This document shows, one piece after another, positions 1 to 39,199 of a stretch of DNA of 63,915 bases. Source of the stretch: Geosiphon pyriformis uo1 (lineage: Eukaryota; Fungi; Glomeromycota). The DNA is taken from the NCBI GenBank assembly GCA_016748015.1, contig JAAOMT010000553.1, forward strand, positions 276,923 to 340,837, given 5' to 3'. Both the position numbers and the translations under genes were made by a program. The stretch's first letter is position 1. The number at the start of each line of letters is the position of its first letter. Under the pieces are notes generated by a model. That model saw nothing but the letters and a program-made list of their open reading frames with translations. It ran no database searches and was not told where the DNA came from.

Positions 1-195
1 CTTATTTTTAAATAATTATAGTAATTAATATAATAATAATAATCAGATTTATTTATTTTTGAATAATTTAAAAAATCAAAAAAACTTCTTTCTCTCTTAC
101 TTCCTAAAATCCTCAAAAAGACACATTTCTAAAAAAAAAGTTTTTTGTTTTTTCTTGTTAAATCTTTCAACATTTCTTTAAATAATCCTTTCGTC

Positions 196-2070
196 ATGGA
201 TTTGAAGACTGCTTTGTGCAGTGATATGTCCAAAAAGAAGGTGCCCAAAGGTGCTTTCTATGGTCTTGCTGGTGGTTTTTTTGCTCAGAAAAAAAAGGTG
301 GTTCTTGGGAATATTAAACACTCTGGTGATGAGAAGGATATCTCTTTGAGTAAATCTGGGTCTGGTGATAGTGTGTATTCTGATGTGGATAGTATATCTG
401 GTGATGATGAGGATGTTGGCATGTCTGGTATAAGTGAGAGGTCTCCGTTGGGCTCAGCTGCCACTACTCCCAAAGCAAAACGTGTTAACACTAATACAAT
501 ATTCGGCTCTCCACTTGGTTCTCCTAATTTTGCTATGGATGATAATGAAATTGTGCTTCTTTCTTGCTTGCCTATCTCTCTGAAAAAAAAGTGGATCAAT
601 CCAAAAATTATTAAGACTTTTGTGGAAGTATCAATCAAAAAATCCTTTGTATTGGATATTGATCTCTCAGCTGTAGAGGGTAATTCAGCAATGGCAAAGA
701 CCTGGCTAATTAGGAAAATTTTTTCTTTGGTTAATGGTTTTGGGAGGACCACTACCCCTTTAAAATTTGAAGGGATCATCAAATCTACCTTTACATTAGA
801 GGAAAGCATGAAAAAGACCATGTTATTAGCCAGGGAAAAAGGGATTATCGTAAACACTGATCTCATGAAATCAGGAGTACGTTCAGATTGAGCTGTGGTG
901 ATCAAAAAAATTCTCATGGATACCCCGAAGGAAATGATTGTTACCGTAGTTGCCAAGTTTGGAGAAATCAAGTCGATCAAGATTCAGTTAATTGGCATGT
1001 GGCAGAAGACTGTGGTGGAGTTTGCTGAATCGAGTCAAGCAGATCAGTTAGTGTCAAGATGGTCATTCTTAATCAGGAAAGATTCAGTGCATGTGGCCAA
1101 AGCCGTGGGAGATCAAGATATCTGGGCCTCTAGGGATCATTTTAGGGCACTTCTGTTTACATTGCCAGTGGGAACAACAGTGCATGATCTTAGTAATCTT
1201 TTGGATAGGGTTGATAGCAAAACTTGTATCATTAATCGTTCATTGGACACTGGTAATAGAATTCATTGTGCTGTGGTTGGCTTCGAATCTAAGAATAATC
1301 TGAATTCTGCTTTTCTTACTGAGTCTGTTTTTGGTGGTGTTCGACTCTCATGGGCTAGATTTGATGTGATTCGGTGTGGAAAATGTGGGCGTCTTGGTCA
1401 TTTAGCTCTTGAGTGTGATGCTTCGAATGTATCGTCTCTTGTGCCCTTATCTTCATTTAAAAAGCCTGTCTCCAATACCAATCGCCTCCAGCTAGCCAAA
1501 CTGTACGCAAGGAAAAATGTTTCTATCTCTTACTCTGCTGCTTTTGGTGGCAAGTCATGGGCCCAAGTGGTGTCTTTTGCTCCCCCTTCTGGTGGTTCCT
1601 CTTCTGGTTCTGGTTTTGATTCTAGTGTCTTCTCTTTTGGTGTCCCTGGTCTAGGTGGTGGTGGTCCTTTACTTCCAAATGATGATTATTTGTTGAGTGC
1701 TTGTTTGGCATCTTTGGAACATTCCTTGGGGCTCCTACATGATCAGGTTTCTCGTATTGTGCACAAACTTAGTGGCGTGAATTTGGTGCCTTTGGCCCCC
1801 CCTCCTTCTTCTTCTGGTGTTTTGGCTGTCCCAGTAGCTGCTAATATTGATATGATTTTGGATGCTACTCCGACTGTTCCTGTGGTGACATCTTCACTTC
1901 CTTCTGTTGGTTCAAATTTGGGTTCAAGTAGTTCAAAGGTTTTGACCTCTAAGGTGAGTTCTTTAGAATTCAAGCTGGTGGCTCTCAACACCTCTGTTGG
2001 TGCAATTCTGGGGAAGTTTGATCAGTTGTGTGCTAGCTCGGGGTCTCAGGTGTCCTCCTATTCTCAATGA
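196..2070 (+). pseudogene. LINE ORF1 (gag-like; RRM-like region + CCHC zinc knuckle)
   Basis: ORFs 145..891 and 895..2070 are in one frame, split by TGA at 889-891. Zinc knuckle CGKCGRLGHLALEC at ~1375-1416; RRM-like KFGEIKSIKIQLIGMWQKTVVEF. Confidence 0.85.
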
Positions 2071-5000
2071 GTGATCTGGTTTAGAAGGTGGCTATGTGTA
2101 ATATAAGAGGAATAAACAATCCTGCAAAACAGGACAATATCATTCATTGGCATAAGGATATGAACAATTTAGTTTCTATTTTCACGGAATCAAAATTAAA
2201 GAGAAAGGTTCGCCCCTGGATTGTTAACAAATTTGATGGTATACGGGTGTTTACCTCTGATATGGAATCTGGTTATCTAGGTGCAGGTGTGGTGATTGTT
2301 ATGGATTCTTCTTTGGTGCGACATGTTTGTAAGATTTTGGAAGTGCCTGATCGGCTCCTGTCCATCAGGTTGCTTTTCAGGAATAAACTGTCTGTGTCAA
2401 TTTTGGGGCTGTACGCTGGTGCCTCTTCAGTGGCTCGGTTTTTTCAAGCTGGCAACATCAACTCTCTTATTGTAAAGGCTGTCAATGAATCTTCTTTCAT
2501 CATTCTTGGTGGCAATTTTAATGAAGACGGCTTTCGTAAGTGTGCAAGTTTTAGAAAATGCCTGGACATGGGTTTGGTTAATGCCTTGGGTGAGAAATTG
2601 CCAACTTGGTCTAATTCTCGGGGCGTTGTTAAGATAATTAATTATGTGCTCATTTCTTTAAACCTAGTCAATGCAGTGGTGGGTCACGACGTGATTAGTG
2701 TTGGGGAATACTTTGATACTGATCATCAGGCTGTCTTAGTGTGGGTAAGTTTAGGCGGTCTGCTAGATGTCTAGTTGAATTCTGTCTGCAAACAGGCAAA
2801 TAAGAATTGCTGAAAGTACAATTGCAAAGGTGTAGATGATATTAAATAGGCCAAATTTGAGAAGGATACTGCAGCAAATGCTGCTATGTTTTATGACAAT
2901 TTTCTTGCAGCCAGGATCCGTTTGGACTTGGATTCGATGTGGGTTGTTCTTCATAAAGTGATGTATCTGTCTGCTGAGGCAGTTTTTAAAAGGAAGTGAT
3001 TCAAGGACTTTGATAAAATTTTTAGCAAGAAATTGTTCAAGTTTCACAGACTAGAGCTCTTGGTGTCTAAGTTAGTTAAAGCATCTCGTCTGAATTCTGC
3101 TGAGGAGTTTACATTTTTGCTCAACAGGTGGGAAGGTGTGGATTCAGTCAATGTCTCTATGGTGAGGTTTCTCTTCCTGTCAGGTTCCCACTTTGATGCT
3201 ATTCGGTCAGTTTTGTCCAAAGTCAAAAAGTCTTATCGCTCCTCCAAGATGTCTGAAGCAGAGCAGATTAGGGAATCTCAGATCAGATTGGCGATAGATA
3301 AAAGGATGGAAAGTTTTGAATTAAACAAGAGTCATACTATTAAGAGCGTGTTGGAACGCCCTTTTCAGAAGGTAACTTTGGATCATCTGGTTGTTGATAA
3401 TGAGTTGGTATTAAAGCCTGATTTGGTTAAGGCCAAAGTAGATGCAGTCATGGAGGGTTGGACTAGGAAGCGTGGTGTGTTTTCTGATGTTACTGGTGTC
3501 TGGAGTCACCAATACCAGTCTTTGGAGTATGTTTTTAATGATGCTTTTTCTGGTGTAATGTGCCCGATTAACTTTGATGAGATGTCTAGTGTCATTTCAA
3601 GTCTGCTTGATGAAAAGACAGCTGGTCTCTCTGGTATCTCGAATGAGTTGTGGAAACATTGTGACAAATCAGTTCTGGATATGCTTTTAGTGCTTTTGAA
3701 TGTTTGCTTGGAGCATGAATCTGTTCCTGGGCCTTGGAAAGAGACTTGGGTGTCGATGATCTCCAAACCATATGAGTGGAAGGGTGTTTTCACAAATACC
3801 CATCCTATTGCTTTGATTGAGACGGCTCGCAAAGTCCTTTCTAAAGTGCTTTTGGACAGGATTTCATCAGTTTGTAGTATTTTTGATGTTCTGAGGGGGG
3901 ATAATTTTTCTGTCTTAAAAGGTACAACAACGCAATCTCCTATTTTTGCTATTGGATCGGTTATAGAAGATGCTTTAGAAAAGAACCGAGAGCTGTGGCT
4001 GGTCTTGTAGGACATGCGAAAGGCTTATGACTCTGTTGGTTGGGAACATCTGAGAAAAAGCTTAGTTAGAATAAAGATGTGTGACAAATTCATTCAGTTT
4101 TTTGGTAGCATCCACAATGATCAGGTCAACAGAGTTATGACGGATTTTGGGTTGACCAATGGATATCAGGTACATGATGGCTTGGACCAAGGGGAGGTGT
4201 TTTCTTCTCTTTTCTGGTACATATTTTATGATCCTCTTTTGTGTGAAGTCAAGAGACAAGAAAGTGTATGTGGATACAGGTTAGACTCTCGATTTGTTGC
4301 CAACACTGGTCGCGTTGAATCTCAGGCTGGTTTGACTTCTTTCTTCACAGCTGGTGCTTTCATCGATGATACAATTTGGATTGGTAGCAGCCAGGCTGCC
4401 ACCCAACATATTCTCAATGTTGCTAGTGATTTCTTTCGAGTCAATGACATCTCGATCAATAATGACAAGATGGTGGCCATTCCCATTAATTGCAGAGTTT
4501 CCGATCCTCATTTGTTGATCAGTGGTTTGCCTATTTTGATAGCCAAAAGGGGAGAGTCTCATCAATATCTGGGTATCTTTCTGTCTACTGAAGGTTTGTC
4601 GAAGCCTAGCTTGACTAAGGCACGCTTGGATGTCCGGTTTTTCACCAATGTTGTTCTGAGAAAAGCTATCTCTGATAAACAGTTCTTGTATTTGGTCTCA
4701 GCAGTTCTTCACCTCATCATTGCCTACAGGACTCAGTTTAGTTTTGTTTCTATTAGTGTGTGTGCGAAATGGGACACTATAATTCATAAAGTTTTGAAGT
4801 CCAAATCTGGCCTGCCGCTCGACTTTCCCAATGATGCTGTTCATCATCCTTCTTTGTATGGGTTGAAATCTTTTGAACAGGTCCAAACAGAGAGCAAGTC
4901 AGCTGTTGTTGTTTGCTTCGCTAATTCTGTAGGTATCTTGGGCCACTTGTTTGTGCATAGGTCTCATGACTTACAAGTTCTCAGCTGGTGCCCTCGCCAC

Positions 5001-6743
5001 CCCCTGCTTTTCTCTTCTTGTATTAGTGTCAGTCCTTTGAATAATTTTTTGGCTGGTGTCATCCGGATTTTTTTGGGTTTTAACCTTTCTCTGGGTGGTC
5101 TCATGACCAAAGCTTTTTGTTTTCAAAAAGAGACCCCAATGTCTATTGTTCTTGGCAAGCCAGCTTTTTATAAATGTGTCTCTTTGCTTCAGTGATATGG
5201 AATTGCCTTCGTTGAGCAGTTTCACAATCGAACTGGTTCTGTTTTCAAATGGAGGACTTTCAAGTGGTAGAAGAGACTGGACCCTCAGGGCCCAGTTTCT
5301 GATTGGTTCAATGTTGCTGTTTGCTTTTTGTCTAGTTCCAGGTCTTTTCCCGTTTGCTTTCTTTTGTCACTAAATGTTGCCTTGTCTGACGTCCTTAAGT
5401 CTTGTGAGTTTGATGTTGTCTATAATCGTTTGTTGGAGGTTGATTCCAATCATCTTTCTTTGTTTACGGATGGTTTTCTGTGTGGGCTGGGTACTTTTGG
5501 TATAAAGGCTGGCGCCACTGCTTTTTTTGGGAACATTGATTTGGGTTTGGGTGTGAAAGTTTCTGGTTTGGTTTCTTCTACCATGGCGGAGTTACAGGCC
5601 ATTGCTTTGGCTCTCAAGTGTGTTCCTCCTTTTTGTTCAGTCAATCTGTTTTTGGACAGCCAGACCGCTTTGGATGCTTGCAAGTCAGAGTTAATATTGG
5701 GTTGTTCAGATTTCAGAAATTGGTGTTGGGTTGAACGCCGCCATATTTCTAATGTCATTTGTCGCAAGAATTTGGATGTTAATTGGATTAAAGTTAGAGG
5801 TCACTCTGGGGTCTTGGGCAATGAGCGTGCTGACACTTTGGCTAGGGCTGCTGCATCTTCTGGTGTGCATCTTTCTTACAGGATTGATGAACATTTTCTC
5901 AGGGCTGGTGGTGCTGTGGTTTCTGGTAATTCTAGACATTTTGTTCGTGGTGTTTTCAACTCTATTCACCATGCACATTGGGAGGTTGGTTCTGGTTTTC
6001 AGGTTTTGGTGGACTGTCTGCGTACTGATGTTGATTGGTTCAGATCATGTTTGGTGTGGCATCTGAACTCTCATTTGGCTGCTGGTTTCACTAGTACTTG
6101 TACTGCTAATTCTTGGACATATTTTGTAAAGGCGTTGCATCATTGTCTTCCTGTTGCTGTGCGTAAGCGACTGTACAGTAAGGGGTACCCCAGTGTGATG
6201 TGTTTGTTCTGCGGTAATGTTGAGATTTCAGATCATGTTTTTTCTTGCCCTTTCAATGCTGGTGATCATGCTTAGTTGATGAACACTCATGCATCTGTTT
6301 GGAAAATGCGCTCGGGTTTGTCTTGCTCAACTTCATGTGTTTCACAGTCACTTTCTGATTGCGCTTTCAATGCTGTTGTTAGTACAGCTATATGTAAGAG
6401 CTTTGTTTTCAATGAGTGGTATCATGAATCTCTTTTTGTTTTCAAAGACTCTAAAACAGCGGCTCAAAATATTGTGGCATTTGTTCGCAAATTCTGTCTT
6501 GCATTCTGAGATGATATTTGGCTGGTGCATATGAAACACAGAGCTGTTATGGAGAAAGATGGCTTGATCCCATGTGACGGCTCTATTCCTATCTCAGTTT
6601 CTGGTTTTCTTTCGGTGCTCTCGTCCAGTATGGTTAAATTGTTGGGTATTGCTGATGCACTTGGTATTAGTTTTGGGTTTTATAAATCTAGTTTATTCTT
6701 TTCAGGTGTAGGTAACTTGGTCTCGGTGCGTATAGGTGCCTAG
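2067..6743 (+). pseudogene. LINE ORF2 pol (APE endonuclease, reverse transcriptase, RNase H, C-terminal Zn finger)
   Basis: One continuous frame of 1559 codons with 10 internal TAG/TGA stops. APE motifs CNIRG, FTESK, LGGNFN, TWSNS, TDHQ; RT motifs L*DMRKAYD, QGEVFS, AFIDD, YLGI; RNase H motifs FTDG, AELQAI, DSQ, VRGHSG, GNERAD; CLFCGNVEISDHVFSC. Confidence 0.95.
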
Positions 6744-6890
6744 TGTTGTCCTGACTAGTCTGAATGGCTGGTCACATGTAGAAAAAGCATGATTCATGTC
6801 TAGTTTAGATCACTTGTATGATGTATTGTATTAGGTAGTGTTTGGACCTCATTCGTTAAAAAATAAAAAATAAAAATAAAAATAAAAAAT
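6744..6890 (+). other. LINE 3' UTR with conserved, probably structured ~100-nt element and A-rich tail
   Basis: CTGGTCACATGTAGAAAA-GC-TGATTCA-GTCTA...TATTGTATTAG recurs at 8788-8930 (+, degenerate) and 30961-31080 (-). Confidence 0.8.
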
Positions 6891-7399
6891 CAATATGGCA
6901 ATAATAATTTACTTTATTTACTTTTAGATAGTTATAACAATTATCATAACAATATTAATTAAATTTCTAAACAATTATTTAATATTTGTTATTAAAACTA
7001 AGTAAAATACATTATTTTACAACAATTAACATTTTATAATCTTTAAAATTGTATTAATAAAATAATAAATTTATGAATAAAGCAAACAATTATAGATTAA
7101 TATAAGTCTTATTATTATAATACTTAAATATAAAATAGAATTAATATTTTAAAATAATATTTGGGATATTTTTTATAATTAAAAATATTTTATAACATCT
7201 AAAAACCTATTTAATAATATTTAAGACACATTATATCTAATGTTATATAATTACAATATAATTATAGAGAATAAAAATTATCTATATTTTGCTATTATAT
7301 TTGTAAAAATAGAGATTATAAAAAAAGATATATAGTAAAAGTAATTATAAAAAGATAATATTATATATAAATAGTTTTGATTTTTAAAAAAGTGTGATT

Positions 7400-8930
7400 A
7401 TAAAAAAATAGTGACTATAGCCAAAAGAACTATAAAAAAAGTTTATTGTAATTATAAATAAAAATAATTTTTTTATTTAAAATTATTAAATTATTTAATT
7501 TTAAAGATTAAATTAATTAAATAAAAGTTAAATTTGCTTTTTTTTCTGTTTTTTATAATATTGTTTTTAATAATATTTAAAAAACCATTATTAATAATTA
7601 AAAATTCTCTAAATAAGTAAGTTTTGCTTTAATATTTAATATTTTTTAAAATTAAATTGGTTTTTATTAAAACTGTTTTTAATTTATTTTTAAAAATAAT
7701 ATAAAGTTGTTTTATATAAAATTTGTTTTTTAAGTTTTTTTAAATATTGTTTTTATTTATTTTTCTACTTTTAAAATTTTTAAGTTTTTGGTAATTTCTA
7801 AATTTACATTTTTTTATTGTTGTTATTTTGCAAAATATGCTTAAAAATATTGCTATTATTAATATTAAGAATATTTTTAATATTTTTAATAAAGTTTTTT
7901 AGATTATATTAAAGATTATAAACATTTAACAATATGTTATTGTATATTTTAATTTCTTAATACAATTATAATTGTTTTTATTTATTGGTAAATTTTAATA
8001 AAAAATAATATAAATTTTTTTTTTGTTAATTAAAAAGACTTAAATATTATTATTATAAAAATTTGCATTTTAAGAAAATATTATATTTGGTAAAAAACTT
8101 TTAATTATTAATATTGTTTTAAGTATTAAAATTTAAATTATTTGGCTTTAGACTATAAAGTAAATTTTTTTTTCAAGTTTTTGTTTAAGTTTATAATTAA
8201 TTTTAAAATTTTAAATCTTATTTAATTAGTATTAAATATTATATTAAGATTTTTGTTTTACTAGTTTTTTCTGTTATTGTATTTTTGACTGTTTTTGTTA
8301 TTATTAGTGTTATTAATTTTTTGGTTGTTTTTAAGTTAATTTTTTTAGAATTTAAGTTTTTAAACTGATTATAATAATTAAATAAATTGTTAAATTTATT
8401 AGTGCTTTAATGTTTTTAATTATAAAGTTAATTAGTGTTTTTTTTTGAATATTAAAATCAATAAAAAACTTTTTGTAATTGATAAAAATATTGGTGTTTT
8501 TGGAAAAATTGTTGAAGATTTAAATAAAAAATTGTTAATCTTAAAATAAAATTTGATGTAAATGGTTTTTCTAATAATAATATAATTAATAATAATTTAA
8601 AATTGCTTATTAATGAAAATGTTTTTGCTAAAATAATAAAATTTAAAAGTTGTAATTTTTTAATGTTAAATTTAATGTAAATAAAACTGCTATATAAATG
8701 ACTAGTTTGATTTTTAGTAGTAATAGTTTAGTTGTAATTTTGTATAAGATGTCTGCTTTAAATAAATTTGCTTTTATGGATTCAATATAGTGTTGTTTTG
8801 ATTGGTTTGAATAGCTGGTTATATATAAAAAGAGCATAAATTACATTTAATTTGGAACACTCTAATATTGTATTGTATTAGATAATAATTGAACTGTATT
8901 TGTTAAACAAAATAAATAAATAAATAAAAA
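7400..8930 (+). mobile_element. Hypermutated relic of an ORF1-only (half-LINE-like) retroelement
   Basis: Decayed reading frame I*QYVIVYF...YW*IL, knuckle relic CFKY*NLNYLALDY (~8115-8156) and C-terminus *KL*FFNVK...I*MTSL...KMSALNKFAFMDSI*, which aligns with ORF 31112..31327. It is followed by an AT-converted copy of the LINE 3' UTR and an A-rich tail. The 5' end is approximate. Confidence 0.8.
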
Positions 8931-9489
8931 ACAATAAATTAATTATTAATAAACAAATAATAAAGTTAATTTAAATTTAAAAAAACCAAATTAATATTAA
9001 TTTTAATATTTGTAATAATTTATGAAATAATATAAAAATTAAAAAATTACACAAAAAATTTATTAAAGACCAAGAATTGTTAAAATATCAAAAATATTAT
9101 TATATTCTAAGCATAATTTTTGTTTATGTAATAGTAGAAAAATGGTTAATATTTTAAAATCTTAAGGCTTAAAATTAATTAAAGCTTGAAAATTAATGAA
9201 AAATAAAATCGAATGGTTGAAAAATAATAAAGTTTTTTCAGTAAACTAATTAAAATAATGCGATTCTATCCAATCAATTAGGACACATTGTAATTTGTCA
9301 CATTATATATTATTTTTTAAGATAAAAGTAAATAATATCTAATTGAAACATTGAATTTTATTTTATCAAGTAATAGTATAATACTTAAGATTTATCAATT
9401 TTTTAAATTTTATTATTGAATATTAGTTTTAATATACATTCACTATTAGAATTATACTACAGCCTAAGAGAAAATAAGTTTGAATTTAA

Positions 9490-10040
9490 AAAATTAGAAT
9501 GGTAAATTGTTAGCGAACTTATTGATTGTAACAGTTCAACCTGACCAATTTGAAATTCAAACCATCCTTATTTGATATTCTCCAATTAATTGGTTTAAAA
9601 AAATTTTCTTTTAGAAAATTTCTTTTCTTGGGAATATCTCAATACCTCAATTGATCGGAAAGTTTTCGATTAAAGCATCCAAAATTATTTTACAAAGAAA
9701 CTGTTTCCGTTTTACTATTAAGCAAACTAAAATAATTTTATAATTATGTTCACACAATTGATTAAATAAGTAATAGAGTTACGCTATTTTTCATGCTTCA
9801 CACCGTTTTGTTCTTGTTTATGGTATTATTATCATATAAAGAACTTGTTTGGCGTCTTTGTGTATTATAGCTACTTGTATTTGTTAATAGTGAAACTTTA
9901 TTTAGTATGATTTGTAGCGAATAATAGTTTGATAAATACATAGAGAAACAACATAAATACGAACTTTCCGAAAAAAATTTACCTTCTAAACGTACTCTTA
10001 AAAAAACTCCATTCGAATAATAGCGTATTCAATTTTATTT
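9490..10040 (+). promoter_or_regulatory. Orphan copy of the kinase-family upstream region (no kinase downstream)
   Basis: Matches 38775-39180, 33830-34500 and 25370-25560 (ATGATTTGTAGCGAATAATAGTTTGAT...ACATAGAGAAACAACATAAATAC...TTCGAATAATAGC-TATTCAATTTTATT). Confidence 0.75.
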
Positions 10041-10044
10041 TTAT

Positions 10045-10960
10045 TAGTAAAATTTTAAACTTAGTAATAAGTCTTAAAACCACTTTTTTTTTAAAAAAAG
10101 CAATTTTACAATTAACATCTATGTAATTTAAATCTTAACGCTCATAATAGTGTCAAAATTTAAAAATTTTCTATTAAATATAAATCTTTTTTAAAAATTA
10201 CAATAATAATAATTAGATTTAAGAAATTATAAACTTAAACAATAATTAATTAACTTGATATTAACATATATTATAAAAGATTTTAAAAAAAATCTAGATA
10301 CTATTTTTTTTAATAAAATTAATCAATAAGCAAAAGCAGTCTTAAAAGCTTTAAAAAATTTGAAATACAATATAACATATTATTACAAATTAGCAGATTC
10401 AATTTAACCTTAAAAACTTTACCAAAATATTGAAAAAATTTTAATATTATTTATAAAATAAAAAACAAAATTTAGTAAGCTTAGTAACAATATTCAAAAA
10501 ATTTTACACAAAAGAGTTTAATATGTTTTTAGTAATCAACACAGTTTTAACTTTAACTATTTTGATTTTTGTAACAATACTTAAATAAAAATTTTTTAAT
10601 AATTAATAATTGTTTTTTAAATACTATCATAATTAATAATATATTTAAAAAACACCAAAAAAACAGTATTTTAGTTTTTATTTTATTAAACCAATTTTTG
10701 TAATTAAATAAAGTTGTGTGTTAAATATAACTTATTTTTTTTAGAACCAGTAATAATTAATTAGAATTTAATATATCAAACAAATATAGTTATATGCTTA
10801 TTCAAGCTAGTTTTGGCAAACATATTATTACTGCTATTTTTTAAAACAAAAAAATTATTGTTTATAACCAAAATAAAATCAAGTATTATAATTAGTACAA
10901 ATATAAAAAAATTAATAAAATTACTAAAAGAAGCCAAAGTCTTATTAATTATACAAAAAA
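10045..10960 (-). mobile_element. Second hypermutated, truncated ORF1-only element relic
   Basis: The reverse strand reads HIKLFCVKF, ANL**YVILYF...AY*LILLKKNSI*IF and a knuckle relic I**KIF...DLNYIDVNCK, homologous to the 7400-8930 and 30958-33177 elements. Confidence 0.7.
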
Positions 10961-12244
10961 CAAACTTTAAATTATAAATATTGTTTTATAAAAACACATT
11001 CTTTTTAGTATTTTAAAAATATTGGTTACATTTTTTTTGAAAATCAAGATGTTGTTTTTTTGCTTTTTGTTATAATTTTAATTAAATATTAAAAACAATA
11101 ATTTTTTTTCTATTTTGTTTTTTTAATTATTATTTTGAAAATTTTTGTAAAAGTTTTAAGTTAAATAAAAAGATTTAGCATGTTTTTAATAAATATTATA
11201 ATATTTGTAATTGTTTTTATAATAAATTTAAAATTATTTTGATTTTTAATAATATGATTTTAAATAATAAAATTAATTAAATGTAATATTATTTTTATTT
11301 AAAAATAAGTTAACATAAACTTTATTTGTATTAATAAAAAAATATAATCTTCTAAAATTTGCAATAATATATCTTAAATAGTTATTTAATTGTAATTTTT
11401 ATAACAATGTAATTTTTGAAACAATTGTTGTTTATACATAAAATTGCAATAATTACATGTTATTAATTGTAATTTAAGATTTAAAATACAATAATTTCAA
11501 AATTTTTTATTTTAATTAATAAATGGTTAAAATTAATAGATAATAACAAAAAATTGCAATCTTTTTCTTAATTTGCAACCAGTTGAAAATTTGAAATTTT
11601 ATAAACAGATATTTATTTAATAAAAATTTTATTGACTTAGGTTTCTATAAAAATAAGATTTGTAATTTTCAACAATTTATTCTAAAAACAAAATAGGTTA
11701 AAATAAATTAGGTTTAATAATTACAAGTAAAAAAGATTAATATACACACTAAATTAAACTTACATTAAAAATAAAGCAAAATTATGTATTTCTTAAATGA
11801 CTTATCTATCACAAAATTCAATAAGCCAATTAATTCTAAAATATCTGATTCTTTTGAAATTCTAAATGAAGCTTTATTTATGCAAACTCGCTAAAATTTT
11901 ATTCAAAAAATTTAACTTTTATGTAACAATATTATAAATGTCGTGAAACCCAAATTGACGACAATGAGGTGTATCATTCAATAAATTCAGTATTATATAG
12001 AAAAAATTTTTATCAATCCTCTCAGTCTGACAGGTTTTTACGGAGATTTTTTTACCAAAAACGATGACCCAACCCTTTGTTTGTTAGCTGACAATCCCCA
12101 GGAAAATTTGATCGCATTTAAATTCAACATTTTAATTTGTGACACTATTGTTATTTTCACGGTCATCCTTACAGATATAGATCTGAAAAAGCCAAGGGGA
12201 AAAAAAAATTCCAAATATATGTAAAATTTGCCCAGCCAATTAGT

Positions 12245-12272: not shown

Positions 12273-12594
12273 CCGTTGGTTTGTTAAAATTCAATCCTTA
12301 ATAATACTGCGGCTCACTTTGAGATATTAGTAGATAAAGTGGCTTTTTTTTCGAGTCACAAGTGGATTTTTTAATCCCTTTTTTCTGACTATCAGTCGTT
12401 GAAAAAACTTCAGAGCTTCTTAACCAACAACAATCTTTTATAAAGTTCACCAAAATACTTGTAATTTTCATTCTTTTTTTTTTTTAAAGAAAAAACTGAC
12501 GCCTAAGAACCCAAACTAATTTGACTATAGATAATTTATTTTTCTATTATAAGTCTCTCAGACCACCTGCCCTCAAACCAAAAAGTGCCCAATA

Positions 12595-14406
12595 ATGGGT
12601 AAAAATAAAGGAAATAAAAAAAATAAGCAGCAGCAACAGAATGGCGGTAAGAATAGTCGACGAAGAAATGCACATCCCGCTGTTCCTCGGAAAGAATATC
12701 AATTACGTGGTCGACGCACAAGACGAAAGGACTGGACAGCCGACGATTATGAAAACAATAGGCAGCAATTAATACTACAACTAAAACAACACGGCCTATA
12801 TTGCAAAGACATTGTAGGCGATGGTAATTGCCTGTTTCGCTCATTGTCTGATCAATATTATGGAAATCCGAAGCAACACCCTAAAATTCGACTTGAGGTA
12901 TGTGAATATCTGGAAGCTCACCGAGATCATTTTCAATATTTTGTTGAGGATGACGTTCCTTTTGACGATCATATCGTGCTCATGAAGCAACAAGGAACAT
13001 ATGGGGGAAATATGGAGCTCGTCGGGTTTGCACAACTGCACCGTGTCGACATTAAAGTCTATCAGCCTGGGAGGGTATATGTAATAAAAGGTGAAGATAT
13101 ATTTAATGGAAGAGAGGAGATCATTCCTGATTTTAACACAGAGAAGGAGACACTTCATATAGCATATCATAGCTGGGAGCATTATAGCTCTGTAAGAAAC
13201 ATTGGTGGTCCTCATGAAGGTGCCCCTAAAATTGAAGCAACACCTGCAAATATGGCGCCACCCATTAATTCACCACCAACACCTGATACTCCGTCGTCTC
13301 CTAACCCTAAAGAGGATGATGCTAACAAATATGTTGAATATATCGAGCACGACGACATCAATGAGTATAAGACGTTCTCGCCAGACACAACGTACGAAAT
13401 TCCGGTTATTTGCAATAAGGATCACGTTGAAATCGAAAACCATTCAGAAATGGTGGAGCCAATTAATGGTCTCCAAGAAGAAATACAAAATATTGAAGCT
13501 CCAAATAAGGACGATCAAAAAGAAGAACAAGAGGAAGAAGAAGAAGAAGAAGAAGAAGAAGAAGCAGAAGAAGAAGAAAGCAAATATGATGTAAAAAGCC
13601 ATTATAAAACTACGGCAAGTGATTTCGTTAACGCTCGTACTGTCGATTATCCATCCTCAAGTTCATCAACCCCAATCCCCGATGACGATGATACAATATC
13701 GGCCGTTTCCTCACATTCGCAAACTTCATCAACAACAGTAGAAACAATTATTCAACAAGAAGAGGAAGAGGAAGTACAAATACAAGTGGAGCCTTCACCT
13801 CAATTGGAAATCGAATACTTCGATGCAGCCACTGCCAATGATTCGTTTCTACCTCGAGAGCTCACCCCGGTGCCTGGTGTTAATAGTAAAAAAGCTAACC
13901 AAGTTTTGGAGAATGTTGATTTTCTCCAGCAACGACGTGTTCTCAATACCTTAAATATCTCAATCATAACACCTGGCTCGTCACCTCAACATTCCGCTTC
14001 CTCATCACCTATCGTGTCGCCTCAACATTCTGCTTCCTCATCACCTATTATTTCTCGATTATCACCAACGAAACGACAACATTCAATAGATCTAACGGAC
14101 GATAATCAAAAGGAATTTTTAATCGAGAAAAATACCAAACGAAACAAGCACAATTCAATATCATCTATTGGTAGTGATGCAATAATGTCGTCACAACTAA
14201 CGCAGTCAATGTCTAAAAAACAGCGACGACAAGCCAAGAAAAAACAACGAAATAAAGAACAAGTTTACTCTGGAGACCCGCCTTCCAATCTAAACAATAA
14301 AAAGAATAAGAACAAGGGGATCGGAGGTAATGGTAAACGAAGGGAACGAGATACCGTGGCAATTAATGTCCAACCCGTTCCCCAAATGCAACAACTGTAC
14401 ATTTAA
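12595..14406 (+). CDS. OTU-domain deubiquitinase (OTUD3/Otu-like), 603 aa, apparently intronless
   Basis: Catalytic motifs GDGNCLFRSLSDQ, GTYGGNMELV and HIAYHSWEHYSSV; acidic poly-Glu and basic low-complexity C-terminal half. Confidence 0.9.
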   Translation: MGKNKGNKKNKQQQQNGGKNSRRRNAHPAVPRKEYQLRGRRTRRKDWTADDYENNRQQLILQLKQHGLYCKDIVGDGNCLFRSLSDQYYGNPKQHPKIRLEVCEYLEAHRDHFQYFVEDDVPFDDHIVLMKQQGTYGGNMELVGFAQLHRVDIKVYQPGRVYVIKGEDIFNGREEIIPDFNTEKETLHIAYHSWEHYSSVRNIGGPHEGAPKIEATPANMAPPINSPPTPDTPSSPNPKEDDANKYVEYIEHDDINEYKTFSPDTTYEIPVICNKDHVEIENHSEMVEPINGLQEEIQNIEAPNKDDQKEEQEEEEEEEEEEEAEEEESKYDVKSHYKTTASDFVNARTVDYPSSSSSTPIPDDDDTISAVSSHSQTSSTTVETIIQQEEEEEVQIQVEPSPQLEIEYFDAATANDSFLPRELTPVPGVNSKKANQVLENVDFLQQRRVLNTLNISIITPGSSPQHSASSSPIVSPQHSASSSPIISRLSPTKRQHSIDLTDDNQKEFLIEKNTKRNKHNSISSIGSDAIMSSQLTQSMSKKQRRQAKKKQRNKEQVYSGDPPSNLNNKKNKNKGIGGNGKRRERDTVAINVQPVPQMQQLYI

Positions 14407-15129
14407 AAGAAAAATTATTATCATCATTATTATTATTATTATTATTATATCATTTGCATTTGGGAGCATATTTTTGGAATTCATTTCTTGCTAGGATATT
14501 TAATAAAAATTACCAATTAGAGAAGATAAATAATAGTATTAACTTGTTAGAAAAAGTATAATATATATAATTTTCGCCCTGGGGGCTTCAACCAACTAAA
14601 TTTTTAATTTTCTGTTCCTTTATCTACTAAGTTTATTGAAAGTGGTTGTCATTTGCTCATATTTACTCTTGAAGCATAATTTAGTTTCTTGACCGTCCTT
14701 GCCGATAGTTTTTTCACATTTCAAAAATAATTTAAATTTGCAGGTTTGTGAATGACGAAATAAAATTTAGCTCGATAGCGTCGGTGTAGCAAAAAATTTA
14801 ATTTAAAAGGTATCAAAAGGTATCAGCTCAATTTCTTGATTGATAGATTTCAAGATTTCTTTTTATATAATCATATTTTGGGTTGAAAGAGTTCTCAAAA
14901 TTACTAACAAAAATTCTATTTAATTCTTTTCAAATAAGAATTAATCAAATATCAAGATATCTCACTCTTTAACCTCCAAGTCGCTAATGACTTCTACAGC
15001 TACTTGGAGATTCTTTTTTAACATTTCATCAAATACATTTTGCAAAATCGGCATTTCTAATAATATCATAATTATTAGTAAGCCTTCACCAAAACGGAAC
15101 TTAAAAATTGCTTTCTACCGGCCCGACCC

Positions 15130-15649
15130 TCAATCACCTTGATCTTTAATATCGAGACGGTTTAATGTGTGTAAAGCTACTTCTAGATCCCTGTTTAAGG
15201 TGTTGGATACTTTTTCTACAATTTGTGATCCTGAAAGACATCGGACTTGCGGATTACCCTCAACAGAAAATTAAAAATTAAAAAACAAAAACGCTCCCCA
15301 TAATACCTTGGTCATTAACTTGCTCCGTCTTACTTATGTCTTTCTCGTTGCTTTTGCATTTATTTCTTGGATTGGCTTTTCCATATGTTTTTAAATGAGG
15401 AATCAAACCACCCATCATTGTATCTAGCTTTTCAAGCAGAGATTGATTTTTATGCTTAAGAGCCTTATTTGGTTTTTTTTTCCCATTTTTTGAAGGTTTG
15501 GAGTTCAAATTCGATTTCGAGATAACGGGTGGAGTGGAAATAAAAGAGCATGAGCTAAGCTTTGTGCGTGGGATACCTGAGGAACGAGAGGTTCTGGAAG
15601 AGTTAGATACGCGGTTTGCACGTGTAGTTTTAATTTTCTGAGGAGGCAT
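15130..15649 (-). CDS. Small basic hypothetical protein (147 aa, 2 exons)
   Basis: Exons 15307-15649 and 15130-15230 with a GT..AG intron at 15231-15306 give an open frame ending ...DLEVALHTLNRLDIKDQGD*. Confidence 0.6.
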
Positions 15650-15845
15650 TTGAAGTAACAAAAATCGTTCGTAAATTTTGTAGATCTAATCAAATTCCCT
15701 GACTCACAAGCCACTTTTGGTGATTACTCAGGAACTGTAGCATTGGCTATTTTCTAAAAGGCTGAAGCTCTAAATTATAGAATTTAATTTATTCTTTGAG
15801 ACGTTTCCCTGAACGCCTCAAAATAACATATTATCATTTATCTCC

Positions 15846-18198: not shown

Positions 18199-18603
18199 CA
18201 TCTAATCATAATGCATTTTTTAGTACATATAGATTCTCGGTGTTTATTTAAATAGATCGATATACCAAGTAAAATGGGAATCTCATCTAAGATTCTGATT
18301 CTTGCTGGTGTTTTTCACTCTCAAAAACAAAATCTATGCATGAAAATAAATTAGTGCCGAAATAGCCTTTGTGTTATCCTTTCATTTTGTTTTTAAAATT
18401 TGTCGTGATATCTAAATAAAATCATCATTTAAACAAAAAAAGGAAATGTAAAATTTATTCTATACGATGAAATGGCAAAATAAACAAAATTAAAAATGTC
18501 CAGACACTATTATTAATTAAAATAGAGAATAACAAAATAATCTATTTTTTTAAACTCTAAAAACGTTCCCCTTATATGCATTGCTTTACTAAATGATCAC
18601 ACA

Positions 18604-20293
18604 TCACCCAGTCTTTTTTTTCGAACTCTTCTTGCTTTTCCGACTCTTGCCTCCTGTTGGAACAGAAGATGATGTTCCAGAAGGCTCTATCTCAACATAG
18701 TCCTCTTCGGTTGCACTGACCACCACCGATTTATCTTTATCGTCATCTTCAGTGGTTTCATCGCTAGTTTCTTTTTTAATTTTCAACGCTTTGTCACTTG
18801 GACTTGTTTCGCTTTCTTTCTTTTTGCTGTTCTTTTTCTTCTTTTTTTCTTCCTCGACTGCTTTCTTATTCTTTTTAACCTCATCAGAATCCGAAGAATA
18901 ATTGAATAATTCTTTCAGTTGCCCTTTTATCAGACCGGTAATTAAAACAGAAAAGATACAAGCTGGGGACAAGTATAATAATGCTGGTTGTGCAGCTTTG
19001 AAAGTGTGCATTACAAGGATCGTTGTTAGGAGACCAAGAATGTAGGCTGTAAAACAGCTATTAAAGTAGGTAGTCTGGAATAAAGAGTGGCGACTGGCGT
19101 TTGGATTCTTTTTTATGTAAAGATAATGATCGAAGCGTAGACATAAGGCCACGTAGATTCCTGATAAAATTGGTAGAGGCAGGCGGAAATGTAAAAAATT
19201 CAATTTCACACAATAATATTTAGATATTAACATGAAAAGTAGATAGATTTAAAAGTACCTGGTACCACAATATCTCCTAATCCAAGCATTGTGAATTGTA
19301 ATGGCTCATCAGGACCTAGGCCAAATATTTGCTTTGGCCATACGACTTTAATGGGTGCATCAAAACTTTTGGCAACGGTGACCATGACCTCAGTACCAAA
19401 TACCCAAAAGACATCGTAAAAAAATAGACCGCTCAACAAAATCATCCCTGTCTTGAACGAATCCAATGAAAGCATTTGAATGCCATTAAAGGCGAATGCG
19501 AGACCAAACACGTTTGATGCAATCCAATTCTTCGTGGCAATGTAATACCCGGTTAATATGAAGGAAAAAATCAACGAGCCAAAATGTATCAGCGAGAAAT
19601 TTGCTTTGTAGATTTCTAATTGACGAAATTTTCAATTAGTTTATAAACTCAATATTTTATGAAGTCACTTGTAGGCTTCTTACCTTTTGATTTTTTACTC
19701 AAGGTAAATTTATAGGAGGTAACCTTAATTTTAGTATAATTTTTCACTATATATACACCCAGAGTAGTAATCGCGATGATACCTAGAAGCGAGAAATAGG
19801 CGGTGACGAGATAATTCACGTAGTCCCTATTTAATAGTTTGAAAACTAGATAAAGGCTAAATAAGACCCCAGAACCGAAAATCGGGAATAGATATGCATC
19901 CTCAGTTGATAGAGACTCGGTTGAGTTTTCATCCTCCGATGACGACTCAGTTTCGTGTGGACTCGATGAATTTATTTTTTTTGCTTTCTGATGAGTGATT
20001 TAAAATAAAATATTCAGATTAATGAAAAAAATCCATGTTTATTATCTAGAAAAAGAGTTTTGAAAACAAAAGAGACTTTATAAAAGGTAGATGATGGTCA
20101 CAGAAAGTTTGCTTTTAGTTTTTTACAAGATTTAGCTTATTATTTAGGAGTTTGCTTAACTTGCTACAAAAGTCTGTAAGCTCAACTTTTTCCTCACCTT
20201 TGGCCATTTTACAGAGGCAAAAGAGCCATAATATATTGGTGAAACTGCCATTATGCCAAGAGCGAAATAAGCGAGGAATAAACCGAAATCCAT
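18604..20293 (-). CDS. Signal peptide peptidase (presenilin-type aspartyl intramembrane protease, A22B / HM13-like)
   Basis: YD (LFFYDVFWVF), GLGD and QPALLY motifs. Exons 20198-20293, 19684-19987, 19259-19615 and 18604-19160. Confidence 0.93.
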
Positions 20294-22863: not shown

Positions 22864-22874
22864 TAATAATAATA

Positions 22875-22920: not shown

Positions 22921-22922
<2 letters not shown>

Positions 22923-30160: not shown

Positions 30161-30957
30161 TTAAGTGTAATTCACAATTTATGGGGCCAATGGGTAGCTC
30201 TTTGAATATTATTTATAAATCATCTATCCATATTGTTTTATAAATAGTACAATATATCTTAATCGATCTGGGCACTTTTTACGCTTGTTGCAATCATAAA
30301 CTTCTAAACAAGTTTTTTAAATTTAAAGGTTTTCTATATGTTGAATAATATTTGAATAAACATTATAATAAAATTAAATTTGGCGAATTCTATCTGAGTC
30401 TTTACTCTGAACCTTAAAAAGAAGGATTCTTTTTAACTATAGCAATTTTTTTCAAGGGCAAAATCCCTATTTTGACTTGGTATCTGCGAAAACTAAATTA
30501 GAGTTTTTAAAAAATAAATTGAAAAATTTAATATTTCTAACTGTGAAACCAATTAAGTAATAATTAACTTGAATATTCATTATTTACTCTATTACTAGCT
30601 TTTAGCCTCAAATTTCAATGAGATTCAAGATCTACCATTGAAAAAATCATTACTTAAAACTTTATCAAAATGGCGTTTGAAAGAATTTTACAATGGATTG
30701 CAGATAGTATTATCAATTCTTATGCCTAAAACGGATATAAAAGTTAACCGTATTCTTCATGATCTTCTTTCTGTTTTCAATATAAAACCGGAATTAGAGT
30801 TTAAACCCTAATTAGCGAGAAAAATGACTTAAGTAGCATTATAAGTAATCATCATTTAAAAACTTTTTATACGAAATTCATAAAGGATCGTTCTATTAAA
30901 ACTAGAATTTTAAGGCTGTTTCTCGTCAGATATCTTTAAACTAAGCAAATTTAATAT

Positions 30958-33177
30958 GTATTTTTTTATTTAACGTGCTAGCCCAATCACAATCTAATAC
31001 AATATGACTACGTAGTCTTAAATTAGACGTGAATCACGCGTTTTCTACATGTGACCAGACACGAGCCCAGCCCAGGTTAAATTACGTTGAAGCAATTAAG
31101 GAAAACCTACTCTAAGCAGACATCTTACCTATGTATGCAACTAAAGTAGTACTATTTTTAACCATACCACTCATCCACTTAGAAGTGAATTCAGCAGTTG
31201 ATTTAATTGAAGAAGCCTGAAGCTCCCAAAGAGCCATGATAGAATCAAAAGTGTTATGATCAATATTATCATTAGTAATATACATATTATCATCATTACT
31301 AACATTACTCTTTACAAAGCTTGCCAACTTCCAAACTCACTCTGCACAACTCACCACCAAAAGCAGTAACATCTTTCTTAATTACAAGCCACTTACCTTT
31401 CAATTCAGCATGTAAAGCAGAAGAGATATCAAACAACTTAGCAACCAAAACAACCAAAGTCCCAATAGGTTTTACTTAACCAATAAAACCAATACAGTTA
31501 ATTCAAATTTTAAGAAAACCAAATAAGGACTGACCAAAAGATTAACAACAACAACAGAAAAACTAATAACAGAAAAACCATAAAAGCAGATGCGAAAGTT
31601 GTAACATAAGATTAAACTTTAACAAAACACAACTTAAAAGTTTTGAAAAAGACAGCAAATTAAAATAACAATTTAAGAAAAAAAAATGATGCCATTTTAC
31701 AATCTAAAGCCAAATGGCAAAATTTTAATATTTAAAACACTGCTAACATCCAGATATTTTCTACTAAATATAACACTTTCTTAAAATATTAGTTTTAATA
31801 ACAACAGTATCTAAATTATTTTTAAAACTAAAAATAATAATTACATATTAAAACTGTTTAATAAGATCAAAAAACAGAAAATAAAACAGATTTAACCCTA
31901 AAAAATAGTTTTTTTTTTAATTTACAAAAAAAAAATTCTGATATTATTTTTGTTTATTAAAGCTAATTAACATGTTAAAACAGCTGTAACTACATTAATA
32001 GATTTAAAATACACAATAACATATTATTAAATAACAGCAAATTTAAGAAAACTTTAAAAACTTTACTATAAATACTAAAAACTATCTTAATATTAACTAC
32101 AAATATATTTAAAAACATATTATACAAACCAATAACAGCAAAAAAAGAAAAATACTTAAATACCACCAAAAATTTAGTTATTTTAAGAATAAAAAAAACA
32201 GAACCAGCAATTTTAACTTAAAATATAGTATTTAAAAAAAATTAAAAAACAAACTCTATACAAAAAAGCTTTATATTATTCTTAAATACAGACTTAATAT
32301 TAATAAAACTATGTATAAACTAAAATATAGTTTTAATAAAAGTCAATTTAATCTTAAAAAAAACATCAAGTATTAAAGTAAAAATTATTATTTAATAAAC
32401 ATTTAATAATTAGTGATAGTTTTCCAAATATTATTAAAAACAATATTAAAAAACAAAAAAAACCAGTTAATTTGATTTTATCTGATTAATTTAATTTTTA
32501 AAATTAAATAACCCAATAAATGTTTTGTTTTTTTTTTAAAATTGGTAATAATCTACTAAAAAACATTATATTTAACAATACAACCAGTAATTAATTTTGG
32601 TTTATTTTAAAAGACAGAACTGTTATTGCTGTTGTTTATATTAAAAAGAAGACTGGTTGCTGTTGTAAAAATTTTATCCAAAATTTTATCTAAAATCATA
32701 AAAAAGATTAGTATAACAATAGTAGAAACAAGTAATTGCTATTGTTTTTTAAAGTCTTTGGCTTTTTTGGCTATTTGTAAAATAATAAAGATAGTAGTAG
32801 TGTTAAAAGCAGAAAAAACCAGCTTATTAATTGGCTTATTATTCAAAACTTTAAGGTTCTTAAAAGAAGCAAAAACAATACTAGAACTAATTCTAATGTG
32901 TTTCTTAAAAAAAACTTTGATTAAAAAAAAACCACTAATCAAAGATAAAAAAAGTGTTTCAAAAGCTGTCTTTGGCAGTTTTTTATTGTTAATACTTAAG
33001 AAGAACACTTTTAAAACATTTTGCCTAACTGCTTTTATAACAGAAAGAATTTTTCTTGTTAAAACTTTATTAGTTACTATAGAGAAAGTAATGTTTAAAA
33101 CTTTTTTACTTTTTGCTTTAGTCATGATCATAAAATCAGGAAAGAGAAAGAGTCTGTTTTAATTGTAATTAGTATTT
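30958..33177 (-). mobile_element. Complete ~2.2-kb ORF1-only (half-LINE-like) non-autonomous retroelement
   Basis: Single decayed ORF from MTKAKSKK (~33125) through knuckle QCFKY*N..HLALDC (~31697-31745) to WELQ...KWMSGMVKN...KMSA*SRFSLIAST*. Then the LINE-type 3' element (30974-31063) and poly(A) (30961-30970). No ORF2. Both ends are fixed by the paralogous empty site at ~38250-38270. Confidence 0.85.
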
Positions 33178-37554: not shown

Positions 37555-39199
37555 TTTGTAAAAGAAAATTCGAGTTCAACATATAAATTAAATCAAAAAT
37601 TAATCAAGATGCTTTTAAATTAAATTAGATTAAGCTAAATAATATGGTTTATCTGATGTTTCACTTATCTGCGAACTTAAAGTGTGAATTAGCATGACTA
37701 TGTCACTAAAATGAATTATAGTTAGTTTATACGCAACAACGAAATATAAAAAATCAAATATTATAATAAATATTTGTATGTTTGGCAAACTTTCATCATA
37801 ATTCCATTTCTAATCCCTTTTATTAAAATAAATATAAAATAAATAAAATATTGAAGCCAGATAAATATTTTACTATTTCTTTCAAGAATTCATCATAAAT
37901 TTTATTGAAATTTAACCTTCTCTAAATCTTTCGCATTCCGTTTTTTTTATTTCAACTAGGTGTATAGTATCTGAATAGATATCATAATAAATTTAGATTT
38001 GGATATTTTACTAAGATTTTTTACTCTAAATTTCTAACTTAAAAAAAGACTTAAAACAGTATTAAAGACTGAAATGAATTTAAAGGATAACCATATTCTT
38101 CATAATTTTCTTTCTGTTTTCAATATAAAATAAAAATTAGAGTTTAAACTGTAATTAATGATAAAAATGACTAAATTTAAGTATCATTCAAAGTAATTAT
38201 CATGCAAAACTTTTTATAAAGGGTCATTTCATTAAAAACTATAAACAAGGCAAATTTAATATTTTGTATACAAAATTAGTGTAAAGTAAAACTTGAAAAA
38301 AAATATTTAAATTAAAATTTATTCTCATATTAAATTTTTAAATTTGACAATTGATATTGTAAAAAAATATCAAAGAGTGAATAAAAAGAGTAAATAAATT
38401 GTAAAAAAATGTTAAATATTAAAAATATTAATATTGTTTATAACTTTTAATAAAAATATAAACATAAAATTTTGTTAAAATTTATTATTATAACTATAAT
38501 TTAATGTTAATAAAATATTTTATTTGTTTATTTATTTAAAAGAATTTTTTAATATTAAAATATTTAGATTTAATTAATAAATAATGTTGATATTGTTTTA
38601 ATTAAAAATTATGCCTAACTTTAAATAGAGCGTAAAGAAGATTTTTAATTTAAATTTAAATATTATAAATCTTTTTTTTTATTTAATTCTAAAAAAATTA
38701 TATTGTGAATTTCAAATTATTTAAGCAAAAAAAATTATTTATATTTAAAATTCATTTAAAATTTTGTCAAACATATTAGAATGGTAAATTGTTGACGAAC
38801 TTATTGATTGTAGCAGTTTAATCTGACCAATTTGAAATTCAAATCACCATTATTTGATTTTCTCTAATTAATTAAAAAAATTTTCTTTTAGATATTTCTA
38901 AAAAAATCTCTTTTCTTGAAAATATCTTAATAGTTAAACACAAAAAATTATATAATCAATAGTGTTACGCTATTTCTTGCTTATGGTATTATTTTTATAT
39001 AAAAGAATTAAACTATTCATTTAGCCAACAATGCAATTTAATATGGATTTGTAGCGAATAATAGTTTGATAAATAAAGATTCGTGAAACTATATAAACAT
39101 AGAGAAACAATATAAATACGAATCCCCCCCATTTAAAATTTACCTTCTATTCGAATAATAGCCTATTCAATTTTATTCAAATTCACATAAAGTTAAACC

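What the first reader, a model, noticed from the sequence alone, without database searches (positions are those of the whole stretch)
7400..10960. RIP-like C>T/G>A hypermutation erasing transposons into AT desert
Seen: what looks like featureless AT-rich DNA is decodable retroelement sequence. Trp TGG has become TAA/TAG, Gln CAA has become TAA, and Cys TGT and His CAT have become TAT. The LINE UTR GGTCACATGTAGAAAAAGC reads GGTTATATATAAAAAGAGC. Both C>T and G>A appear on one strand, outside CpG. Near-identical kinase duplicates in the same window show no comparable AT conversion. Established: RIP (RID-dependent) is a sexual-cycle defence best documented in Ascomycota. Inference: a TE-targeted deamination or methylation-coupled mutator acts in this lineage and is not triggered simply by duplication.
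Basis: partly seen in the sequence, partly recalled or inferred. Interest (0 to 1): 0.75.

Follow-up and report, generated by a model that had tools for sequence, protein, structure and literature searches.

The report
Cytosine-erasing decay of fungal transposons
In this Geosiphon-like symbiotic fungus, dead jumping genes have had most of their C and G letters turned into T and A while neighbouring host DNA changed in a more ordinary way, a pattern likely caused by methylation of silenced DNA and different from the known fungal defence RIP.

Summary
Observation largely confirmed; interpretation partly. 7485-8930 (+) and 10095-10940 (-) are relics of a LINE ORF1 family; a third, complete copy lies at 30958-33177 (-). 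Relic A decodes at 235 bits under a C>T/G>A model, against 30 under a C>A/G>T model and 17 shuffled. It has lost 39 of 54 C and 73 of 105 G at conserved codon positions. Where the sister copy kept G/C, A shows 43 transitions and no other change in 57 sites. Host paralogous DNA has a roughly fourfold lower ratio of transitions to G:C<>A:T transversions. The process is not canonical RIP: there is no CpA preference, no strand bursts, and near-identical copies persist. It favours a 5' pyrimidine (TpC most) and also removes CpG. Corrections: 9480-10045 is a spared copy of a kinase upstream region, not a transposon; the kinases are mostly 79-88% identical; other AT deserts here are as AT-rich without this signature. 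Most likely cause: non-CpG methylation of silent chromatin followed by deamination (inferred; no methylome or enzyme tested). I found no report of it for Glomeromycotina in ten searches.

The parts
133..6890 (+). Younger, broken LINE used as reference: ORF1, endonuclease-like frame, reverse transcriptase, RNase H, 3' UTR, A-rich tail; 41% GC, CpG o/e 0.36
   Evidence: Pfam RVT_1 and RNase_H; 120 of 120 listed ORF1 homologues named Geosiphon pyriformis; 15,051 contigs of run X1 laid on 1-6860; composition. The endonuclease label is inferred from position; Pfam gave no hit.
7485..8784 (+). Relic A: ORF1 of a second LINE family (profile positions 207-744 of 750), about 70% of conserved G/C converted by transitions; 13% GC, no CpG
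8115..8156 (+). Decayed CCHC zinc knuckle of relic A (codons TGT, TAT, TAT, TAT at the four ligand columns)
8788..8930 (+). 3' UTR and A-rich tail of relic A, shared with the LINE at 6741-6890; 22 GC>AT transitions against 5 reverse in 122 columns
9480..10045 (+). Host DNA spared between two relics: copy of the kinase genes' upstream region, ending just before the start codon position; 23% GC like its paralogues, CpG kept
10095..10940 (-). Relic C: more decayed ORF1 of the same family (profile 143-509); 15% GC; alignment weaker
30958..33177 (-). Relic B (comparator): whole ORF1 plus 3' UTR and poly(A), no ORF2; heavily converted in the middle, spared at the 3' end
30950..30957 (.). Left copy of an 8-base target-site duplication of B (right copy 33178-33185); A/T only, so moderately supported
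38255..38262 (.). Empty paralogous site of B's insertion, upstream of another kinase copy; gives an internal clock

Best explanation
Dead LINE copies in this Geosiphon-like fungus lose cytosines to thymine on both strands, outside CpG as well as in it, several times faster than host DNA does, likely because silent chromatin is methylated in all contexts by a DIM-2-type enzyme and the methylcytosines then deaminate over many mitotic divisions. Shown: relic identity, spectrum, both strands, context, excess over host paralogues, sparing of a promoter-like island and of B's 3' end. Inferred: methylation, the enzyme, chromatin as the trigger, and gradual vegetative timing. The end state matches the genome's background AT level, so the element disappears from ordinary repeat searches.
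For: Excess: where B kept the family G/C, A has 43 transitions, 14 kept and 0 other changes in 57 sites; where B kept the family A/T, A changed 10 of 116. Broken kinases show C>T 40 of 440 against 54 changes of 1,154 A/T sites. Transitions to G:C<>A:T transversions: 97:10 in element pairs against 125:51 in ten host non-coding pairs, p=9e-5, at similar A<>T distance (28 of 435, 53 of 1,415). Simulated neutral decay gives A<>T 0.257+-0.019, lowest 0.22 in 40 runs; observed 0.077. Genome-wide: LINE copies in run X1 differ at 1,132 C>T/G>A places against 123 C>A/G>T; ORF1 gene models show non-CpG C>T 9.1% against C>A 0.66% (66 of 130 alignments). Independent events: strand dispersion 1.04 in 116 copies; runs and clumping at the permuted null. 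Position matters: B's last 75 codons 2 of 16 converted against 165 of 291, p=5e-4, although the 3' end has the highest summed depth. CpG is depleted in elements, not in genes. Literature: AM fungi are said to keep DNMT1, DNMT5, DIM-2 and RID and to have 32.5-49.5% of cytosines methylated (PMC8298701, passages), while CG sites are 13.8% of cytosines (PMC8647823, passages); together these imply non-CG methylation (my inference). Dim2 drives mitotic C>T in repeats of Zymoseptoria (PMC8016269, section 11).
Against: Published AM fungal maps that I saw report CG methylation only. The known Dim2 mutator is over 98% CpA; this one is not, and N. crassa DIM-2 is described with a CpT preference (PMC13297926, passage), a 3' bias that was not seen here. 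The host control is small (69 C>T events) and partly under selection. Per-copy C>T load is overdispersed (5.45) and uncorrelated with transversion load (rho 0.01, 123 copies), which could mean episodes; subfamily structure confounds this. In R. irregularis kinase genes are themselves often CG-methylated. The gene-model samples are biased to lightly mutated copies. Even a 20-fold transition model did not reproduce the low A<>T distance (0.165), so some shared history of A and B is possible (concordance odds ratio 2.2-2.4, p=0.10-0.26).
Confidence: 0.5

Rival explanations
1. Cytosine damage (spontaneous deamination, perhaps with light-induced dipyrimidine lesions) occurs everywhere but is repaired poorly in silent chromatin, so elements accumulate C>T without non-CG methylation.
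For: 5' pyrimidine bias: T 12.3%, C 9.8%, G 7.9%, A 6.4%, per-site p=8e-6; relics 91 of 119 against 155 of 258, p=0.002. Independent, strand-symmetric events. Position dependence. One host flank lost G/C directionally.
Against: Purine-C-purine sites mutate at about half to three quarters of the top rate (ACA 6.5%, GCA 11.3%, TCC 15.6%), unlike a light signature (recalled). Transversions are not raised with the transitions, as a general repair deficit would predict. Host deserts show TpC at expectation, 554 against 547.
Confidence: 0.18
2. True RIP: a RID-dependent, homology-triggered, premeiotic process with a relaxed sequence context acts during cryptic sex.
For: Both-strand C:G>T:A saturation of repeats. 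Composite RIP index weakly positive in relics (0.17-0.57) and negative in six other deserts. RID reported in AM fungi (PMC8298701, passage). Overdispersed load among copies.
Against: No CpA preference (3' A 9.7%, C 8.9%, T 8.7%; CpA+TpG 290 left against 268 expected). No strand bursts. 655 contigs at 99% or more and 1,398 at 95-99% among 15,051 laid (some are this locus itself). A 2 kb kinase duplication at 86%, 9 kb apart, is unconverted, 60 against 74 transitions. RIP signatures were found restricted to Ascomycota (PMC12543289, abstract and section 9) and not detected in Gigaspora margarita (PMC8647823, passage).
Confidence: 0.11
3. A TpC-preferring cytidine deaminase edits element DNA after insertion, guided by RNA or chromatin.
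For: TpC is the top context and TpC+GpA is depleted in relics, 155 against 268.
Against: The bias is only about twofold. No same-strand clusters. Equal C>T and G>A rules out editing of one cDNA strand. No deaminase was searched for.
Confidence: 0.1
4. Ordinary ageing: old insertions drift to the genome's AT-rich equilibrium, with CpG methylation as the only element-specific effect.
For: Other deserts are 14.5% GC. Host DNA also favours C>T (6.5% against 1.3-2.5% for other common classes). Host G/C sites turn over fast. A against broken kinases on raw counts is only p=0.08.
Against: A/T sites are nearly untouched while about three quarters of G/C are gone. The simulation is rejected. Equilibrium under the kinase spectrum is 21-29% GC. 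B is younger than the duplication of its flanks yet more converted. The context bias is absent from kinases (p=0.27).
Confidence: 0.11

Closest known systems
Repeat-induced point mutation (RIP) of Neurospora and other Pezizomycotina
   Same: C:G>T:A saturation of repeats on both strands, stop codons from Trp and Gln, AT-rich relics.
   Different: No CpA preference, no strand bursts, near-identical copies persist, a linked 2 kb duplication is untouched; lineage outside the clades where PMC12543289 found the signature.
Dim2-dependent mitotic C>T mutator of Zymoseptoria tritici (PMC8016269)
   Same: Transition excess concentrated in repeats, not needing sex; the likely mode of action.
   Different: There over 98% of transitions are at CpA and CpG is spared; here the 3' base is indifferent, the 5' pyrimidine matters and CpG is lost.
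TpCpG hypermutation of Pucciniomycotina transposons (PMC3318451, abstract)
   Same: Outside Ascomycota; 5' T favoured; CpG hit.
   Different: Here TCC and TCT, which are not CpG, are among the top contexts.
CG methylation of transposons in Rhizophagus irregularis (PMC8647823)
   Same: Same subphylum; CpG depletion in elements here fits it.
   Different: It does not account for conversion of 62-69% of CpA and CpC sites.
Index-based RIP signal in Zoophthora radicans (PMC11105155, passages)
   Same: RIP-like claim outside Dikarya.
   Different: That rests on dinucleotide indices; here copies are aligned and polarised, and the index is only weakly positive.

Membership tests
RIP (RID-dependent) | C:G>T:A transitions in repeats, both strands | tested here: met
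RIP (RID-dependent) | CpA (or another sharp 3') target preference | tested here: not met
   3' A 9.7%, C 8.9%, T 8.7%; CpA 39 of 63, CpC 34 of 49, p=0.53
RIP (RID-dependent) | Triggered by homology regardless of sequence origin | tested here: inconclusive
   2 kb kinase pair at 86% and a 445-column flank at 96% unconverted; identity may be near the threshold (recalled) and the copies may be under selection
RIP (RID-dependent) | Strand-biased bursts in lightly hit copies (recalled feature) | tested here: not met
   dispersion 1.04 in 116 copies; runs z -3.09 against permuted -2.21+-0.92; protein-level test only
RIP (RID-dependent) | Needs RID/Masc1 | not tested
RIP (RID-dependent) | Confined to the premeiotic stage | not testable with these tools
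   needs crosses or mutation accumulation
Methylation-coupled mitotic mutator (Dim2 type) | Transition excess located in methylated repeats | tested here: inconclusive
   excess in repeats shown; methylation not measured
Methylation-coupled mitotic mutator (Dim2 type) | CpA specificity as in Z. tritici | tested here: not met
Plain CpG-methylation decay | Excess confined to CpG | tested here: not met
   544 C>T and 588 G>A places against 103 present CpG and about 276 if o/e were 1
Non-LTR retrotransposon (LINE) ORF1 derivative | ORF1 homology with CCHC knuckle | tested here: met
   family profile also hits the window LINE's ORF1 at E=1.6e-23
Non-LTR retrotransposon (LINE) ORF1 derivative | Shared 3' UTR, poly(A), target-site duplication | tested here: met
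   UTR in A and B; poly(A) and 8-base duplication with empty site for B; not resolved for A or C

The most novel reading that the evidence does not exclude
Glomeromycotina, long held to be asexual and RIP-free, run their own transposon-erasing mutator: a DIM-2/RID-family enzyme marks silent repeats in YpC-biased, non-CG contexts and converts them during vegetative growth until they are invisible, which would make part of the AT-rich intergenic DNA of these fungi erased transposon and explain why CpA-based RIP screens see nothing.
Probability: 0.35. Interest if true: 0.8.

Novelty: new variant of a known kind. Interest (0 to 1): 0.62.

Why it matters
AM-type fungi have large repeat-rich genomes and are described as lacking RIP. 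A measurable, element-biased, non-CpG C>T process in this lineage gives a sex-independent route to transposon inactivation. It also means that CpA-based RIP indices and ordinary repeat masking miss such relics, and that Kimura-type age estimates for these elements would run too old. The context and position predictions can be tested directly with one methylome and one genome-wide alignment.

Tried and rejected
No whole genome was held, so no proteome search for RID, DIM-2, DNMT5 or deaminases. Direct DNA alignment of the relics to the window LINE found only the UTR; family-1 ORF1 proteins did not decode A or C. A word-indexed search with B's 74-residue tail found nothing; the full scan found 11 hits, of which 8 of the 10 looked up are G. 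pyriformis gene models and 2 are unnamed repetitive proteins treated as chance. No RNA holder was listed, which is no evidence on expression; runs X2-X4 gave 10 short pieces only. Metagenome scans gave no relatives. Eleven other AT-rich stretches did not decode with the family-2 profile (best 40 bits, at a low-complexity part), nor 15 with seven single-sequence profiles (best 26); the latter test is weak, since its positive control scored 23-36. A same-strand runs signal (z -3.09) vanished against column permutation. A first context tally with variants capped at 10% frequency hid the TpC bias; uncapped tallies show it. Rejected: editing of one cDNA strand (both directions equal), CpG-only decay, TpCpG hot spot alone (TCC and TCT are high), assembly artefact (gradient within B, spared island; run X1 holds 97% of words but may be the source sample).

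Full report
Setting. The window is fungal. All 120 listed homologues of the LINE ORF1 at 892-2067 (of 219 found) and all 120 listed for the second family (of 151) are named Geosiphon pyriformis. It carries a broken LINE with reverse transcriptase and RNase H, housekeeping genes and a tandem kinase family. I treat it as Geosiphon-like Glomeromycotina.

What the stretch is. GC is 10-16% over 7001-9500 and 10001-11500 and 26% at 9501-10000. Self-comparison links 7483-8922 and 10106-10743 to 30955-32519. The least mutated tail of the latter found G. pyriformis gene models. From 119 such proteins (three remote ones dropped; 178 of 182 alignments kept) I built a profile and a frameshift-tolerant codon aligner with a stated mutation model. 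Relic A scores 235 bits if C>T/G>A is allowed, 30 if C>A/G>T is allowed instead (same AT end state), 17 shuffled. B scores 681 and 256, C 60 and 28. A covers profile 207-744 and runs into the LINE's 3' UTR and an A-rich tail. B is a whole ORF1 plus UTR and poly(A) without ORF2, with an 8-base duplication and an empty paralogous site at 38255. Between A and C, 9480-10045 is a copy of the kinases' upstream region, at 23% GC like its paralogues and with CpG intact.

Spectrum. At codon positions 1-2 of conserved residues, A has C>T 39 of 54, G>A 73 of 105, T kept 71 of 74 and A kept 82 of 113; a model neutral between transition and transversion gave nearly the same table. Part of the A>T excess is shared with B (7 sites) and so is subfamily divergence. 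Using B to polarise, A shows 43 transitions, 14 kept and no other change at 57 G/C sites, and 10 changes at 116 A/T sites; in the best-aligned part 33 of 42 and 1 of 80. The quoted codon changes hold except Trp to TAG. The UTR motif is as quoted.

Is it more than ageing? Host controls: private changes in six kinase copies are C>T 69 of 1,066, C>A 20, C>G 6, and 137 changes at 2,880 A/T sites; the three broken copies give C>T 40 of 440. Ten host non-coding pairs give 125 transitions to 51 G:C<>A:T transversions, element pairs 97 to 10 (one of three element pairs had no block passing the filter), p=9e-5. Kinase pairs show ts/tv near 1 and no direction. Under the kinase spectra GC cannot fall below 21-29%. 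A generous null that lets it fall gives A<>T 0.257+-0.019 and identity 0.59, against 0.077 and 0.75 observed (40 runs, stand-in ancestor). B inserted after its flanks duplicated, yet those flanks share more of their G/C. Genome-wide, copies of the window LINE in run X1 differ at 1,811 transition and 392 transversion places, and ORF1 gene models show non-CpG C>T at 7.8-9.1% against C>A 0.7-0.8% (23 and 66 of 130 alignments). Against this: raw counts for A against broken kinases reach only p=0.08, C is poorly aligned (73 transitions to 25 G:C>A:T-type transversions), the control is small and partly selected, and one host flank lost G/C 12 to 3. Six other deserts are 14.5% GC with CpG 50 against 46 expected and TpC 554 against 547, whereas the relics have CpG 2 against 26 and TpC 155 against 268. 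So the AT level is background; the route to it is special.

Context. The 3' base is indifferent apart from CpG: A 9.7%, C 8.9%, T 8.7%, G 16% on 8 sites. The 5' base matters: T 12.3%, C 9.8%, G 7.9%, A 6.4%, p=8e-6 per site. The second family agrees (Asp>Asn 19%, Glu>Lys 18%, against Ala>Thr 6%, Ala>Val 8%; shared variants not removed), and so do the relics (p=0.002). Kinases show no pyrimidine-purine contrast (p=0.27), though their 5' T rate is also high (8.2%) and 5' C low. The composite RIP index is only weakly positive. Across 123 copies there is no strand bias or clumping beyond the null, but load is overdispersed and not tied to transversions. B's 3' end and adjoining host flank are spared; gene conversion from a young copy could also explain that.

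Mechanism. Independent, strand-symmetric, position-dependent transitions with CpG loss fit methylation of silent chromatin in all contexts followed by deamination (0.5). Every step of that is inferred. Rivals are poor repair in silent chromatin (0.18), RID-type RIP with relaxed context (0.11), ordinary ageing (0.11) and a TpC deaminase (0.10).

What is known. PMC12543289 (abstract, sections 8 and 9, passages) finds RIP-like signatures only in Ascomycota; 'Geosiphon' occurs neither in its text nor in the 12 of 19 supplements searched, and files 13-19 were not searched. PMC8647823 (passages) states that RIP was not detected in Gigaspora margarita or Mucoromycotina and maps CG methylation on transposons. 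PMC8298701 (passages) reports very high 5mC and five methyltransferase types in AM fungi; PMC13297926 (passages) lists RID for Ascomycota only, so that point is unsettled. PMC8016269 (abstract, section 11) is the closest working model but is CpA-specific. PMC3318451 (abstract) and PMC11105155 (passages) are the other cases outside Ascomycota. PMC11952901 (passages), a survey of AM transposons that includes Geosiphon, has no occurrence of RIP. bioRxiv 10.64898/2026.01.13.699255 (abstract) describes an opposite-polarity mutator in an alga. Ten searches showed no report of this pattern for Geosiphon or other Glomeromycotina; subscription papers, probably including the species' genome papers, are outside the library.

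Verdict. A real, element-biased, non-CpG C>T hypermutation that works like RIP in outcome but fails its context and strand tests. New variant of a known kind; interest 0.62, limited by one window of DNA-level evidence, a small host control and no enzyme or methylome.

Noticed in passing
window 30958-33177 (-), 7485-8930 (+): ORF1-only LINE derivatives sharing the autonomous LINE's 3' UTR, one with poly(A) and a target-site duplication; they resemble 'half-L1' (HAL1) elements (name recalled, not checked).
   Followed up: partly
proteins P0134-P0249: Gene models of this ORF1 family have clustered locus tags (many within a few dozen numbers on one contig), suggesting local arrays or a site preference such as centromeric regions.
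   Followed up: no
window 6900-7480 and 10950-11750: 11-12% GC, no CpG, TpC low like the relics, but not decoded; likely relics of other elements or the 5' parts of A and C.
   Followed up: partly
window 7390-7450: A motif that could be a decayed CCHC knuckle of a different element upstream of relic A; spacing does not fit cleanly.
   Followed up: no
window 30726-30950 against 38069-38254: Host flank pair in which the copy beside B keeps G/C and CpG while the paralogue lost G/C (12 against 3 transitions).
   Followed up: partly
window 25400-63915: Tandem kinase family of at least seven copies in both orientations; three open (26127, 35125, 58666) and three broken (about 29500, 39800, 42100); 40283-40636 and 63571-63915 are 99% identical.
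   Followed up: partly
window 54933-56451 (+): Tc5/pogo-type transposase remnant (Pfam HTH_Tnp_Tc5), 24-32% GC; its spectrum was not examined.
   Followed up: no
window 22200-23000, 27600-29300, 36600-39000, 40600-41800, 56500-58000, 60400-61600: AT deserts at 12-16% GC that keep CpG; more AT-rich than the 21-29% equilibrium implied by the kinase spectrum, which is unexplained.
   Followed up: partly
window 12553-21457: Ordinary host genes: OTU-like protease, amino acid permease, signal peptide peptidase, class II aldolase/adducin-domain protein; CpG o/e 0.85-1.0.
   Followed up: no
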